64,000 nucleotides of DNA. Source: Candidatus Hydrogenedens sp. GTDB lineage: Bacteria > Hydrogenedentota > Hydrogenedentia > Hydrogenedentales > Hydrogenedentaceae. The translations under genes and the position numbers were made by a program. The notes under the pieces are model-generated. The model searched no databases. It was not told the origin of the DNA and worked only from the letters and a program-made list of their open reading frames with translations. Where the stretch lies: positions 224,001 to 288,000 of the forward strand of contig JBMFRC010000001.1 of assembly GCA_049968235.1 (NCBI GenBank), in the 5' to 3' direction. The first letter of the stretch is position 1, and the number at the start of each line of letters is the position of its first letter. This document shows positions 49,301 to 54,769 of the stretch, piece after piece.

Positions 49301-52300
49301 TTAGCGTTGCCGTCTCCGCAGTGTGAATACACCTGCCAGTGCACTCAACGCACTAACTAGTGCTATACTCACGGCACCTGCAACAGGTATGCCACTGCCT
49401 TTCGTCAATGTTGCAACACTGCTATATATGACATCCGTCAGGTCATCACTTATCACACAGCGATATTGACCTACATCTTCCTCATTAAACGGCGTGAATA
49501 CAAGTGTATTCGATGTAGCACCGCTGATGTTACCGCCATTGGTCAGGTTCACCCACGCTTTACCACCTTCGCCATCAGATTTCTGCCACTGATAATGCAG
49601 TGTGCCGATACCACCTTGAGCGGTCACACTCATGGAGAAGTTATCGCCCGGTACCACTTCCGCATTGGATATATCACCGGTTATGGAGATATGATTGGCG
49701 ATACGGACACGAGCCTGACTTGACACATGCGTATTTACAAGGTCCGTAATTTCTACCTGATACATATAGGTACCCGGTGTTAATGTGGCTGGGTCAACTG
49801 TCAGGATAAATGTATTTTCTCCAAATTCAACAGAGCCACTATCTACCACAGACCCATTGCGTTTCCACTCATAGGTGTCATAACCGGGGATAAATATACC
49901 ACCGCTGATTGTTGCTCTCAGATCAAATGCTGAGGAATCTACATACGCATCCGCATTCTGCGGTTGCGCTACATACTGCAGGTATTCACCAACATACACG
50001 GTCCGTTCGACCGGTGTGCCCGTGTGTCCGCTATAATCTTTCGGTGTGTAGGTAATCACATACATGCCCGAAGTATTTACATCCACCGTGCCTACAATTT
50101 CTGTCAGAACAGTTACACCGCCCCAGCATGGGTCATCTGCGGTGTATCCCGGTTCAACCCACGGTGTTCCTAATTTCCACGGTAGCGGGTTAGCACCTTG
50201 CAATGTTACTACCGGCAAATCATTGTCCACGACTTCCACTGTGCGATAGACAATGGTTGTCTGCGGATTTTCTGGGTCATGGTCGATTACTTTGTATTCA
50301 ATCTGATATGTGCCGGGTTCGGCAATATTCAGTGTGCTGGTCACAATTACTTCTTCTGTCAAATCACCATCTTCAGGGTCTTGCGCCACATAACCCGGTT
50401 CGACATATTCTTCTTTACAATCAATGCTCATCGGATTATCGCCTAACAGCGTTATCTCCGGTGGCTGGTTCACAATAATCTTCACGACACGGGTCTTTTG
50501 TTCGGCTACATTACCATTGAGGTCTGTATAATCATAGGTTACAACATATTCACCTGCATCAGATGGCAATAATGGGCAATTGCTCGGCACGGCATCTCCA
50601 CCTACGACTGCTTCACCGGTACCATCGCAATTATCTGTCCAGAATGCACCTTCTTCAACATAACAATCAATATTTGCCACTAACAGGACATACGACGCAC
50701 CACGCAATTGGATTTCCGGTGGTGTTACATCGCGCACCGTTACTTGTGCCGTTGCAGATGCCTGATTGCCGTTTACATCATAGGCTGTCAGATTTACTGT
50801 CTGCGGGGTTAACCGGTCAGCACAGGTAAATGTCGTCCGGTCTAATTCAAGATGGTCAATACTGCAATTATCTGTTGTGCCATTATCTACATCTGCCGGG
50901 ACAATAGTTGCCTGATTGGTCTCATCGAGGTCAACCGTAATATTCTTTGTTACCACAGTAGGTGGTAAATTATCCTCAACCATTACGGTCGCCAGACAGG
51001 TATTCTGCAAGTTCGCTCCATCCGTCACTGTCAACAACACCTGATTCTGTCCAATATTGGCACAGGTATATGTTGTTGGCGGAATGCTTAAGCTCAATGG
51101 ACCGCAGTTATCTGTGCTACCACCATCCAATTCGCTTGCAGTAAGTGTGTATTGTCCTGAAGAATTCAGATAGACTGTAATATTCGCACATACCGCTGTA
51201 GGATTGGTTACATCATTTACCGTTATCGTAGCATCGCATGTGCCCTGAGAGCCTGCATAGTCTATCACCGTTACTGTCCTCTGTGTGCTCGGTCTATCAC
51301 CACAGGTGAGGTTTACATTTTCCTGACCACTTACCACTATTTTCCAGATGCCACCGGGCACTGTGCTATTTGCGATGTCCAGTAACGAATTTGCAGGTAT
51401 GATCTGATTACCAGTCTCGTCTAAATCAACGGATATATTCTTGCAAACCAGGTTCATCGGTTGTTTCACCAATTCATACGCACCGCGGTCAGACGCAGAA
51501 TCTTGCGGTCTCGACACACCCTGGATATCGTAGTTCGGACTCGTTAGTGTCGAAGCATCAACGAACGGCGAAGCATTCGTCAATTTGAATGTCGGAGGTG
51601 GGAACACGTTATTGAACAGTGGGTCAACCGTCTGTGATGTATCACTTTCGAGTATCTGTAAGCCCGCACAAGACGGATTCGAAGCAGGGCAGAAGGTCTC
51701 TATGCAACCTGGTACATTCTGCCAGAAGATACTGCTATGAACCTGACCCGAACCCGTCGTATTATAGTTAAATATAGCTGAACTGGTTAAGCCATATAGG
51801 CCACCTGTTGTATTATCAACCGTATTACCTACAAATGTACTGAATTTAATTGTCGGGTCTGCCATATTGTTGAATATAGCACCACCACCACGCATCGGAT
51901 TACCCGCACTATCCAATAACCGATTCGCTCTATTATTGTAGAACACGCAGTTGATTATCGTAGCATTAGCGGAACTACCGCCATAAGATTCATTAGAAAT
52001 CGCACCACCAGATACTGCCGCAATATTGTCATAGAATGTGCAGTTCGCAATTACCGGTTGTGATATCCAGTTATACAAACCCGCACCACGCCATGTATGA
52101 TAATCGCCGGCAACACCGCTGGCACGACCACCACGGATATCAAAGCCATCTATACGAACATTTACGGCAGGTTGTGTTGAACTACCTACAACAATAACAT
52201 GATACGCAGGAGAACCGCCACGCGATACGGAACCATCGATAATTGTTACTACATTCCGCACTGCACGTTTCGCACGAATATCCTCTTGCATGCCCCAGTA

Positions 52301-54769: not shown

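What the first reader, a model, noticed from the sequence alone, without database searches (positions are those of the whole stretch)
49301..54769. 1822-aa giant surface protein with beta-helix + Ig-like + DUF5011-like modules and a TM/RRRQR tail
This is the largest gene in the window. It has a clear signal peptide. A parallel beta-helix repeat run (NxTFYDN / INCVFYNN) follows. There are several Ig-like modules with the YRC(V/K)I(S/T) motif. Three modules resemble Big_3/DUF5011 (TLLGDNP…VEPGY…DPEDGDLT). The tail ends G-S-G-I-P-V-A-G + 20 hydrophobic residues + RRRQR. That tail has the same architecture as the tails of two of the neighbouring cohesin-like proteins. It also resembles PEP-CTERM-type sorting signals, but with an IP rather than a PEP motif. 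A dedicated sortase-like processing system may therefore exist. The gene has its own hairpin terminator and an 830-bp AT-rich upstream region.
Basis: partly seen in the sequence, partly recalled or inferred. Interest (0 to 1): 0.5.

Follow-up and report, generated by a model that had tools for sequence, protein, structure and literature searches.

The report
Giant surface protein, lineage-specific sorting tail
This is a real 1822-residue cell-surface protein gene of an uncultured Hydrogenedentota bacterium, and its short C-terminal tail belongs to a conserved, apparently uncatalogued family of sorting-signal-like tails found almost only in that phylum.

Summary
The ORF is real (49301-54769, minus strand, 1822 aa). 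It is identical to an NCBI protein of a Candidatus Hydrogenedens MAG.

- signal peptide;
- four or five Ig modules;
- three DUF5011 modules (122 bits);
- a right-handed beta-helix, sub-threshold by sequence but supported by an AlphaFold model and fold search;
- a strong terminator.

The tail is not a generic anchor. A tail-only HMM found 66 representative proteins, all carrying it at the extreme C-terminus. The spacing is fixed: G-[VIL]-P-[VA]-[AG]-G-x-L-G-L...A-L-G-G-A...R-R-R-K. A DNA-pattern scan of 185,579 species genomes found about 65 such tails in 39 genomes. These are essentially all Hydrogenedentota, with up to four copies per genome.

The tail meets six of Haft's eight published sorting-signal criteria fully and one partly. 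No curated -CTERM model reaches its cutoff, and IPTL-CTERM is the closest.

The neighbouring cohesin proteins do not share the motif. No processing enzyme could be identified, and a genome-wide search for one was not possible.

Verdict: an ordinary kind of protein carrying a probably new variant of a known kind of sorting signal.

The parts
54689..54769 (-). Signal peptide (aa 1-27; predicted cleavage AQA|HPY)
   Evidence: The translation shows a KK n-region, a hydrophobic core and an AxA site. The junction AQA|HPY[ML]YY is conserved in orthologues down to 33% identity.
53405..54688 (-). N-terminal domain of unknown fold (aa 28-455), mixed alpha/beta
52565..53404 (-). Three Ig-like modules (aa ~456-735) with YFRC/YRC motifs
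   Evidence: Pfam Ig_3 79 bits with 3 stretches, plus Ig_2, ig and V-set.
51470..52564 (-). Right-handed parallel beta-helix plus choice-of-anchor Q domain (aa ~736-1100); the most conserved part of the protein
   Evidence: 49-63% identity to the 33%-identity orthologues over aa 751-950. NCBIfam choice_anch_Q 35.5 bits vs cutoff 25 at aa 1050-1100. Beta_helix and Chlam_PMP sub-threshold. AF2 pTM 0.79. All top PDB matches are beta-helix proteins.
50705..51469 (-). Three HYR-like repeats (aa ~1101-1355; NISVDLDETGNQ / NITVYLNSSGQY / NITVDLDETNQA)
   Evidence: Pfam HYR reaches only 11 bits. The region aligns with HYR-annotated T9SS proteins P0016-P0021 (e.g. P0016, 513 bits, 37% identity).
50000..50704 (-). 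Three DUF5011 / Bact_surface_Ig-like modules (aa ~1356-1590)
   Evidence: PF16403 E=1.1e-35, 121.9 bits, 3 stretches.
49406..49999 (-). Two C-terminal Ig-like modules (aa ~1591-1788); the last one (I-set, 1696-1776) abuts the tail and travels with it in most carriers
   Evidence: I-set 35 bits. K319L-like PKD is weak at 1600-1690. Nearly all tail carriers share this module.
49304..49405 (-). Tripartite C-terminal tail (aa 1789-1822): TKGSG-IPVAG signature, Ala/Gly/Leu/Ser-rich TM helix, RRRQR
   Evidence: Tail HMM: 63 bits, E=1.2e-12 against 1.84e9 proteins. It is the only match to the tail DNA pattern in the window, with 0 expected by chance.
49240..49269 (-). Intrinsic terminator (13-bp stem, 8 GC, loop 4, T7)
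54770..55602 (.). 833-bp AT-rich intergenic region upstream, shared with the divergent glycogen-debranching-type gene; contains sigma-70-like hexamers
   Evidence: The promoter-like site count is not above the shuffle expectation, so no promoter is assigned.

Best explanation
The gene encodes a giant modular cell-envelope protein of a Hydrogenedentota bacterium.

Export (inferred): it is exported by Sec through a cleavable N-terminal signal peptide.

Passenger (shown): an N-terminal domain of unknown fold, three Ig-like spacers, a highly conserved right-handed beta-helix with a choice-of-anchor Q domain, three HYR-like repeats, three DUF5011 modules and two more Ig modules. The beta-helix is the likely glycan-binding or glycan-cleaving working part, or an adhesive one (inferred).

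Tail (shown): the last 34 residues form a tripartite C-terminal signal. It consists of the signature G-[VIL]-P-[VA]-[AG]-G, a TM helix with near-invariant small residues in fixed register (G+6, A+15, G+18 counted from the Pro), and an RRR[KR] cluster.

Mechanism (inferred): the tail holds the protein transiently in the cytoplasmic membrane. A still-unidentified membrane-embedded sorting enzyme then recognises it, as in PEP-CTERM/exosortase or IPTL-CTERM systems. The enzyme would cleave near the signature and pass the passenger to its final surface attachment.

Shown: the architecture, the tail family, its C-terminal position, its copy number per genome and its phylum restriction. Inferred by analogy: cleavage, the enzyme and the final location.
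For: Architecture.

Tail family:
- An HMM of 34-aa tails against 1.84e9 representatives gave 69 hits at E<=1e-3. Of these, 66 lie at the extreme C-terminus with identical P-(22)-R spacing.
- Counts per position among the 66: P 66, G+3 59, G+6 64, A+15 65, G+18 66, R+23 66.
- Carriers have varied passengers: Big_13, fn3, Beta_helix, DUF5011, or no Pfam domain at all.
- The DNA pattern finds about 65 such tails in 39 of 185,579 species genomes. All genomes named to phylum are Hydrogenedentota, apart from MAGs labelled Nitrospirales that carry Hydrogenedens orthologues. There are up to 4 tails per genome even with this strict pattern, and all end 3-11 residues after the first Arg.

Haft criteria: C-terminal position, multi-copy, signature, TM and Arg cluster are met. 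Signal peptides are present in carriers that look complete. Homologous passengers end in T9SS or SLH anchors in other phyla.

Conservation: the tail averages 60% identity against 29% for the adjacent Ig domain, and 56% even where the Ig domains are under 20% identical. Composition alone predicts 32%.

Analogy: a protein predicted to carry the related IPTL-CTERM domain is the S-layer protein of the diderm Methylomirabilis lanthanidiphila (PMC8671808).
Against: - No candidate sorting enzyme (exosortase, rhomboid or CPBP type) was seen in the window or in the flanks of about 65 tail loci. Whole genomes could not be searched.
- Almost every carrier also shares the Ig module next to the tail. Part of the tail similarity could therefore reflect common descent of an 'Ig + tail' cassette, and Haft's criterion 7 is only partly met: 266 of 1176 pairs have no other similarity.
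- Carriers were selected by the tail itself, which inflates the apparent conservation. In the unbiased orthologue set the tail is only modestly more conserved than the neighbouring domain.
- One 57%-identity orthologue (P0012) has a different TM tail without the motif, scoring -1.7 bits.
- There is no experimental evidence of cleavage.
Confidence: 0.6

Rival explanations
1. The tail is a permanent C-terminal stop-transfer anchor of a type I membrane protein. It is never cleaved. Its conserved small-residue pattern serves helix-helix packing (oligomerisation or lateral association), and the similarity among carriers reflects spread of an 'Ig + TM' cassette by domain shuffling within one phylum.
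For: No enzyme was found. Nearly all carriers share the Ig module abutting the tail. Orthologue P0012 works with an unrelated TM tail. The tail is rich in G/A/S at helix-periodic positions.
Against: The invariant Pro and flanking Gly lie outside the hydrophobic core, at the membrane interface, where sorting signatures sit. The tail remains 56% identical when the adjacent Ig domain has diverged below 20%. A few carriers lack the Ig module (P0048, P0094; P0076, P0084). Layout, length and Arg cluster match curated sorting signals, with the same register as IPTL-CTERM. A 1800-aa adhesin-like or beta-helix protein tethered to the inner membrane of a presumably diderm cell would not reach the surface (inference).
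Confidence: 0.3
2. The tail is simply a member of the already curated IPTL-CTERM (TIGR04174 / PF18203) or PEP-CTERM family, so nothing is new.
For: IPTL-CTERM is the best or near-best sub-threshold hit for many canonical tails. The degenerate DNA pattern built from these tails also retrieved about 18 true IPTLGEWG tails with identical spacing. hhalign of the two tail sets gives 97.6% probability, but both sets were selected with the same pattern, so this is biased.
Against: No tail of this family reaches any curated cutoff. IPTL-CTERM scores 11-15 bits against cutoffs of 20.5 (NCBIfam) and 20.8 (Pfam), aligned only over the TM part; PEP_CTERM scores <=11 bits against 16. The window tail gets no Pfam hit. 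The positive control, an IPTLGEWG tail, scores 28.8 bits. The T-L and E-W signature residues are replaced by [VA]-[AG] and x-L. The two types were found in disjoint sets of genomes. Cross-scores are 25-39 bits against 39-75 bits for self-scores. Public annotations call carriers 'hypothetical', 'DUF5011' or 'immunoglobulin-like'.
Confidence: 0.1

Closest known systems
IPTL-CTERM sorting domain (TIGR04174 / PF18203)
   Same: Same tripartite layout and the same register: [VI]-P at the start, Gly six residues after the Pro, A-[LI]-[AG]-G late in the TM helix, and Arg cluster 23 residues after the Pro. It is the closest curated model by score. It occurs on surface proteins: the S-layer protein of M. 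lanthanidiphila is predicted to carry one.
   Different: The signature is G-[VIL]-P-[VA]-[AG]-G-x-L-G instead of I-P-T-L-x-x-W-G. Scores stay below the curated cutoffs (11-15 bits vs 20.5/20.8). The taxonomic range is different and non-overlapping in this survey: Hydrogenedentota versus Acidobacteriota and others. The TM helix is much richer in Gly/Ala/Ser.
PEP-CTERM / exosortase system (TIGR02595; Haft 2006, PMC1569441)
   Same: Short signature containing an invariant Pro, then a TM helix, then an Arg cluster. Multiple copies per genome, on secreted proteins with signal peptides.
   Different: No P-E-P motif. PEP_CTERM scores <=11 bits against a cutoff of 16. The presence of an exosortase could not be tested.
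Choice-of-anchor Q proteins (NF041518) and beta-helix surface proteins such as Rhombotarget A (PDB 9cdv) or Chlamydia Pmp-type repeats
   Same: A beta-helix passenger followed by a C-terminal sorting tail. The choice_anch_Q domain is above its cutoff. Rhombotarget A is among the structural matches.
   Different: The structural matches are weak (E 1e-3 to 1e-2, TM 0.3-0.4). Rhombotarget A uses GlyGly-CTERM/rhombosortase. Here the beta-helix is embedded in a much larger Ig/HYR/DUF5011 array.
T9SS-anchored HYR/DUF5011 giant proteins of Bacteroidota (e.g. P0016, 'T9SS type A sorting domain-containing protein')
   Same: Homologous HYR-like and DUF5011 repeat block (37% identity, 513 bits).
   Different: They end in a T9SS C-terminal domain (PF18962) instead of the TM/RRR tail. 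They lack the N-terminal domain and the beta-helix.

Membership tests
Tripartite C-terminal sorting signal (criteria of Haft 2023, bioRxiv 10.1101/2023.06.07.544157, section 5) | [quoted passage not shown] | tested here: met
   66 of 69 HMM hits end within a few residues of the protein end. All of the ~65 genomic tails are followed by a stop 3-11 codons after the first Arg.
Tripartite C-terminal sorting signal (Haft 2023) | [quoted passage not shown] | tested here: met
   17 of 39 genomes have 2-4 copies even with a strict exact-match DNA pattern. This is a lower bound. Only one copy lies in the 64-kb window.
Tripartite C-terminal sorting signal (Haft 2023) | [quoted passage not shown] | tested here: met
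   Counts out of 66: G-2 51, P0 66, G+3 59, G+6 64. Caveat: the sequences were selected with an HMM of the same motif.
Tripartite C-terminal sorting signal (Haft 2023) | 4) hydrophobic TM segment and 5) a basic cluster of 2-5 residues at the end | tested here: met
   A roughly 20-residue A/G/L/S-rich segment, then R 66/66, R/K 65/66 and R/K 65/66. In the window: AVSIALVSALSALAGVFTL + RRRQR.
Tripartite C-terminal sorting signal (Haft 2023) | 6) most carriers have an N-terminal signal peptide | tested here: met
   23 of 39 Met-starting carriers of >=250 aa have an SP-like N-terminus by a crude hydrophobicity test. The rest look like fragments from short contigs. No dedicated signal-peptide predictor was available.
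Tripartite C-terminal sorting signal (Haft 2023) | 7) numerous carrier pairs share no similarity other than the signal | tested here: inconclusive
   266 of 1176 pairs have no BLAST similarity outside the tail, and 65 more share only the terminal module. However, nearly all carriers have an Ig module homologous to aa 1591-1788 next to the tail.
Tripartite C-terminal sorting signal (Haft 2023) | 8) homologues in other lineages lack the signal or carry a different one | tested here: met
   The HYR/DUF5011 homologues P0016-P0021 and P0028 end in a T9SS CTD (PF18962); P0023 carries SLH. The choice-of-anchor Q domain is present.
Tripartite C-terminal sorting signal (Haft 2023) | a cognate sorting enzyme that co-occurs with the signal | not testable with these tools
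   None was seen in the window or in 8-kb flanks of ~65 loci; only transporters, glycosyltransferase-type proteins and an M28 peptidase were found. Whole-genome profiling was not possible.
IPTL-CTERM (TIGR04174 / PF18203) | score at or above the curated cutoff (20.5 / 20.8 bits) with the IPTLxxWG signature | tested here: not met
   Canonical tails score 11-15 bits, aligned over the TM part only. The window tail gets no hit. A control IPTLGEWG tail scores 28.8 bits.
PEP-CTERM (TIGR02595) | score >=16 bits with the P-E-P signature | tested here: not met
   <=11 bits and no PEP motif.
Bact_surface_Ig-like / DUF5011 (PF16403) | score above the gathering threshold | tested here: met
   121.9 bits against 27, three stretches.
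Right-handed parallel beta-helix (Pfam Beta_helix PF13229 / pectin-lyase fold) | sequence score above the cutoff | tested here: not met
   16.7 bits against 25.9; Chlam_PMP 18.3 against 20.6.
Right-handed parallel beta-helix (fold level) | predicted structure matches beta-helix structures | tested here: met
   AF2 pTM 0.79, with the core at pLDDT 80-90. The 50 best listed Foldseek PDB matches are all beta-helix proteins, though with weak E-values of 1e-3 to 0.2.
Choice-of-anchor Q domain (NF041518) | score above the curated cutoff | tested here: met
   35.5 bits against 25 at aa 1050-1100.
HYR domain (PF02494) | score above the gathering threshold | tested here: not met
   11.1 bits against 21.7. 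The region is nevertheless homologous by BLAST/HMMER to proteins whose repeats are annotated HYR, so it is a divergent relative.

The most novel reading that the evidence does not exclude
The G-[VIL]-P-x-[AG]-G...RRRK tail is a previously uncatalogued, phylum-specific protein-sorting signal of Hydrogenedentota. It would be a sister to IPTL-CTERM and would be handled by its own, still unknown, intramembrane sorting enzyme. Like IPTL-CTERM, the signal would then be an 'orphan', and phylogenetic profiling on complete Hydrogenedentota genomes could reveal a new sortase family or subfamily. The giant protein would be one of its main cargoes.
Probability: 0.45. Interest if true: 0.6.

Novelty: new variant of a known kind. 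Interest (0 to 1): 0.45.

Why it matters
Hydrogenedentota are uncultured, so how they build their cell surface is unknown. This work gives a defined, searchable tail motif that marks a family of large surface proteins in the phylum.

- It offers a handle for predicting the surface proteome of these organisms from genomes alone.
- It gives a concrete query for phylogenetic profiling to find the enzyme that processes the tail. That enzyme might also process the related orphan IPTL-CTERM signal.

The protein itself (Ig, beta-helix, HYR and DUF5011 modules) is an ordinary type of bacterial adhesin-like or glycan-active surface protein. Its 430-aa N-terminal domain has no detectable relative.

Tried and rejected
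- The word-indexed protein search with the 44-aa tail profile returned only one fragment from 456 candidates.
- Synteny: the orthologues in L001 and L002 have unrelated neighbours, so there is no conserved operon.
- Enzyme hunt in flanks: multi-TM ORFs near tail genes turned out to be MFS, ABC-2 permease, LPG_synthase_TM, YhhN, PMT_2, an M28 peptidase, a spermine-synthase-like protein and one unannotated 460-aa protein. None was recurrent apart from orthologous synteny.
- In the window, the only ORFs of >=120 aa with three or more predicted TM segments are an apparent ABC-transporter permease (4230-5336, not scanned against families), a probable MntP-type protein (33945-34535, judged by eye) and a 126-aa ORF.
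- Literature: no paper in the library links Hydrogenedentes to exosortase or PEP-CTERM. 'IPTL-CTERM' appears in a single paper.
- The hhalign similarity of this tail set to the IPTL tail set was set aside as evidence of homology, because both sets were picked with one DNA pattern that fixes the shared columns.
- The idea that the cohesin/dockerin neighbours form one sorting regulon with this gene was rejected on tail scores.
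Full report
OBSERVATION

The ORF at 49301..54769 on the minus strand (GTG start, 1822 aa) is real and is the largest in the window. Its product is 100% identical to an NCBI protein annotated 'immunoglobulin-like domain-containing protein [Candidatus Hydrogenedens sp.]' on a 421-kb MAG contig. Full-length orthologues exist at 86% down to 33% identity (P0002-P0015).

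The gene is more GC-rich (0.45-0.49) than its surroundings. It ends 32 nt before a strong intrinsic terminator: a 13-bp stem with 8 GC pairs, then T7, at 49269-49240. An 833-bp AT-rich intergenic region precedes it. The number of promoter-like sites there is not above the shuffle expectation, so I assign no promoter.

ANATOMY OF THE PROTEIN

- Signal peptide, aa 1-27. The junction AQA|HPY[ML]YY is conserved in all orthologues.
- Three Ig-like modules, aa ~456-735 (Ig_3 79 bits).
- Beta-helix region, aa ~736-1100. Sequence models are sub-threshold: Beta_helix 16.7 bits vs 25.9, Chlam_PMP 18.3 vs 20.6. NCBIfam's choice-of-anchor Q domain is above its cutoff at 1050-1100 (35.5 vs 25). The AF2 model has pTM 0.79 and core pLDDT of 80-90. 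All of the best PDB matches are right-handed parallel beta-helices: pectin methylesterase, the AlgE4 epimerase, alginate lyase/epimerase, the HK620 tailspike, RbmB, Rhombotarget A and PfbA. Those matches are weak (E 1e-3 to 1e-2, TM 0.3-0.4). The fold class is therefore supported, but no enzyme family is assigned.
- This beta-helix region is the most conserved part of the protein. It shows 49-63% identity to orthologues that are 33% identical overall, which marks it as the probable working part.
- Three HYR-like repeats, aa ~1101-1355. Pfam HYR reaches only 11 bits, but the region is clearly homologous to HYR-annotated T9SS proteins of Bacteroidota.
- Three DUF5011 modules, aa ~1356-1590 (121.9 bits).
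- Two further Ig-like modules, aa ~1591-1788 (I-set at 1696-1776).
- The tail, aa 1789-1822.

It missed the choice-of-anchor Q domain, the HYR-like block and the orphan N-terminal domain.

THE TAIL

The tail is conserved across orthologues that are only 33% identical overall. For example, the window has GSGIPVAGAVSIALVSALSALAGVFTLRRRQR and P0015 has GSGVPVGGALGLAALAAMTALGGAASLRRRNK.

HMM search. I built a 34-column profile of nine tails and scanned 1.84 billion representative proteins with it.
- It returned 69 hits at E<=1e-3. Of these, 66 carry the match at the very end of proteins ranging from 50 to 3450 aa.
- In all 66 the register is fixed. Counting from the invariant Pro: G-2 51/66, [VIL]-1 59/66, G+3 59/66, G+6 64/66, L+7 57/66, A+15 65/66, G+18 66/66, R+23 66/66, followed by R/K R/K K/R.

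Genome survey. I back-translated the most constrained positions into a 79-nt degenerate pattern.
- The pattern finds the known tails locally and is expected 0 times by chance in the window.
- Over one genome for each of 185,579 species it gave 82 loci. Translation shows about 65 of them are this tail, always followed by a stop codon 3-11 codons after the first Arg.
- These lie in 39 genomes: 22 labelled Hydrogenedentota/-es/-ens/-ales, 7 labelled only 'bacterium' or 'uncultured bacterium', and 10 labelled Nitrospirales/Nitrospiraceae. Some of the Nitrospirales-labelled MAGs encode orthologues of the same giant protein with tails identical to Hydrogenedens sequences (e.g. L031), so those labels are probably wrong.
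- Seventeen genomes have 2-4 copies even with this strict pattern.
- All carriers that any public source names to organism are Hydrogenedentota. None is named as a sorting-domain protein.

Conservation. Across 1830 carrier pairs the 28-aa tail averages 60% identity, against 29% for the 90 aa upstream. It stays at 56% where the upstream domain is under 20% identical. Shuffling the core residues gives 32%. The carriers were selected by the tail, so this overstates the contrast. In the five proteins found by whole-protein similarity, the tail is more conserved than the neighbouring domain in eight of ten pairs.

COMPARISON WITH PUBLISHED CRITERIA

Haft lists eight attributes of tripartite C-terminal sorting signals (bioRxiv 10.1101/2023.06.07.544157, section 5).
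- Attributes 1-5 are met: C-terminal location, multiple copies per genome, a signature of at least three near-invariant residues, a TM segment and an Arg cluster.
- Attribute 6 (signal peptides) is met for carriers that look complete.
- Attribute 8 (homologues with other anchors) is met. The HYR/DUF5011 block recurs in proteins ending in T9SS C-terminal domains, and one relative has SLH domains. The protein also contains a 'choice-of-anchor' domain.
- Attribute 7 (carrier pairs with no other similarity) is only partly met. 266 of 1176 pairs share nothing else. Nearly every carrier, however, has an Ig module homologous to aa 1591-1788 abutting the tail. 'Ig + tail' thus behaves as a cassette placed behind varied passengers.

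COMPARISON WITH CURATED FAMILIES

- Neither the window tail nor ten canonical tails reach the cutoff of any NCBIfam -CTERM model (release of June 2026). The best scores were IPTL_CTERM 12-15 bits vs 20.5, Rumino_NPXTG up to 18 vs 23.5, PGAP-CTERM 17 vs 25, and PEP_CTERM <=11 vs 16.
- In Pfam, IPTL-CTERM (PF18203) gives 11-13 bits vs 20.8 for canonical tails and nothing for the window tail. A control IPTLGEWG tail scores 28.8 bits.
- The DNA pattern also retrieved about 18 genuine IPTL-type tails ([IV]PTLGEWG...) from Acidobacteriota, Sulfidibacter and others. The two signals therefore share a register: [VI]-P, Gly at +6, A-[LI]-[AG]-G late in the helix, and Arg at +23.
- They differ in the signature and occur in disjoint genomes. 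Cross-HMM scores (25-39 bits) are well below self-scores (39-75 bits).
- The hhalign probability of 97.6% is biased by the shared selection pattern, so I do not count it as evidence of homology.

I therefore file the tail as working like an IPTL-/PEP-CTERM-type signal, but not as a member of either curated family.

The two neighbouring cohesin-cluster proteins (57744-58595 and 58439-59743) have C-terminal TM segments followed by Lys/Arg. They score 0.2 and -1.1 bits with the tail HMM, against 45.4 for the target. They do not share the signal.

The cohesin/dockerin cluster is real: Cohesin matches at 58439-60542 and Dockerin_1 matches at 60546-62417. It is not syntenic with the orthologues elsewhere.

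THE ENZYME QUESTION

I looked for polytopic membrane enzymes in the window and in the flanks of about 65 tail loci. I found only transporters, glycosyltransferase-like proteins, an LPG-synthase-like protein, an M28 peptidase and one unannotated 460-aa protein. No exosortase, rhomboid or CPBP family protein appeared.

In one-to-many systems the enzyme is normally unlinked from its substrates, so this absence says little. Whole genomes could not be searched with the tools at hand. No paper in the library connects Hydrogenedentes with exosortases.

The only experimental anchor for the analogy comes from Methylomirabilis lanthanidiphila, a diderm. Its S-layer protein, the outermost layer, is predicted to carry an IPTL-CTERM domain (PMC8671808).

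MECHANISM

Shown:
- the modular secreted architecture;
- a conserved beta-helix core;
- a phylum-restricted, multi-copy, fixed-register C-terminal tripartite tail.

Inferred:
- Sec export;
- transient retention in the cytoplasmic membrane by the tail, with the Arg cluster inside;
- recognition of the G-[VIL]-P-x-[AG]-G signature and the small-residue face of the helix by an intramembrane sorting enzyme;
- cleavage and transfer to a surface attachment;
- the beta-helix acting on or binding a glycan, with the Ig/HYR/DUF5011 modules as a stalk.

The main rival is a permanent stop-transfer anchor whose conservation reflects helix packing and cassette ancestry. It remains viable, and I give it about 0.3. 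One 57%-identity orthologue (P0012) carries an unrelated TM tail, which fits that rival.

NOVELTY AND SCORE

The protein is a new member of a familiar class. The tail appears to be an uncurated variant of a known kind of signal. A specialist would see it as a useful addition to the catalogue of -CTERM signals rather than a surprise. The value lies in giving a concrete query for finding the cognate enzyme in an uncultured phylum.

Interest 0.45.

Noticed in passing
window 15713-15800 (-): A ZMP/ZTP riboswitch (RF01750, 64.6 bits vs gathering 39) lies just upstream of the minus-strand gene run 10286-15639. By eye from the N-terminal and C-terminal sequence stretches printed, these look like glycine-cleavage/folate genes.
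   Followed up: no
window 57744-62417 (-): A cluster of small secreted proteins with Cohesin (58439-59743, 59754-60542) and Dockerin_1 (60546-61844, 61926-62417) domains, two of them with plain C-terminal TM anchors. This looks like a miniature cohesin-dockerin assembly in a Hydrogenedentota genome. A cohesin protein also lies 5 kb from the orthologue in L001 (4625-5704).
   Followed up: partly
window 46459-49191 (+): A Ski2-like or archaeal-type DEAD/DEAH helicase (DEAD, Helicase_C, Helicase_dom4_arc) fused at its C-terminus to an OmpR-type winged-helix Trans_reg_C domain (aa 821-895; 24.2 bits, just under the 26.2 cutoff). It is convergent with the giant gene. The fusion is unusual.
   Followed up: no
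window 39450-40940 (+): A membrane-anchored protein with DUF3108 (25 bits, just under the 26-bit cutoff) and a transglutaminase-like cysteine-protease core. Its start overlaps the end of the upstream 915-aa ORF (36727-39474), which I take to be secA by eye from its C-terminal motif. A Cys-protease-fold enzyme next to the Sec motor is worth a look as a possible envelope-protein processing factor. This is pure speculation.
   Followed up: no
loci L008, L009, L013, L015, L022, L031, L038, L048, L049, L057, L059, L062, L063, L071, L078: MAGs deposited as 'uncultured Nitrospirales/Nitrospiraceae' (TPA assemblies) carry the Hydrogenedentota-type tail. In some cases (L031, L057) they carry clear orthologues of the giant protein with tails identical to Hydrogenedens sequences. 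The taxonomic labels of these records are probably wrong.
   Followed up: partly
L010, L017, L051 (also L043, L078, L080 tails of the same subtype): A subfamily of ~400-450-aa carriers has the tail variant LP[VI]AGGLGLALLAGACALGG..IRRRK. In three genomes these genes sit 1.5-2 kb from a divergently oriented ABC-2 (Wzm-like) permease gene. This may link them to polysaccharide export, which would be reminiscent of the PEP-CTERM/EPS association.
   Followed up: partly
L064 and L066 (Acidobacteriota / Thermoanaerobaculia MAGs): An IPTL-type motif plus TM plus RRR (VPTLGEWGLLALALGMALAGAIALRRRGS...) occurs in the middle of a protein. A second hydrophobic segment and about 250 more residues follow, so this is an internal rather than C-terminal sorting-like signal.
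   Followed up: no
L002 8833-14383: In GCA_017880035.1 the orthologue is called as two genes (375 aa and 1460 aa), which is probably a frameshift or assembly error. Another orthologue, P0012 (57% identity), ends in an unrelated TM tail without the motif.
   Followed up: no
window 43173-44207 (+): A prepilin-type N-methylation motif plus a DUF1559 domain, a protein type abundant in Planctomycetota and related phyla (from my own knowledge), is present here in a Hydrogenedentota genome.
   Followed up: no
window 20668-22575 (+): A 635-aa protein matches DUF4914 end to end at 989 bits. It is a very well conserved family of unknown function.
   Followed up: no
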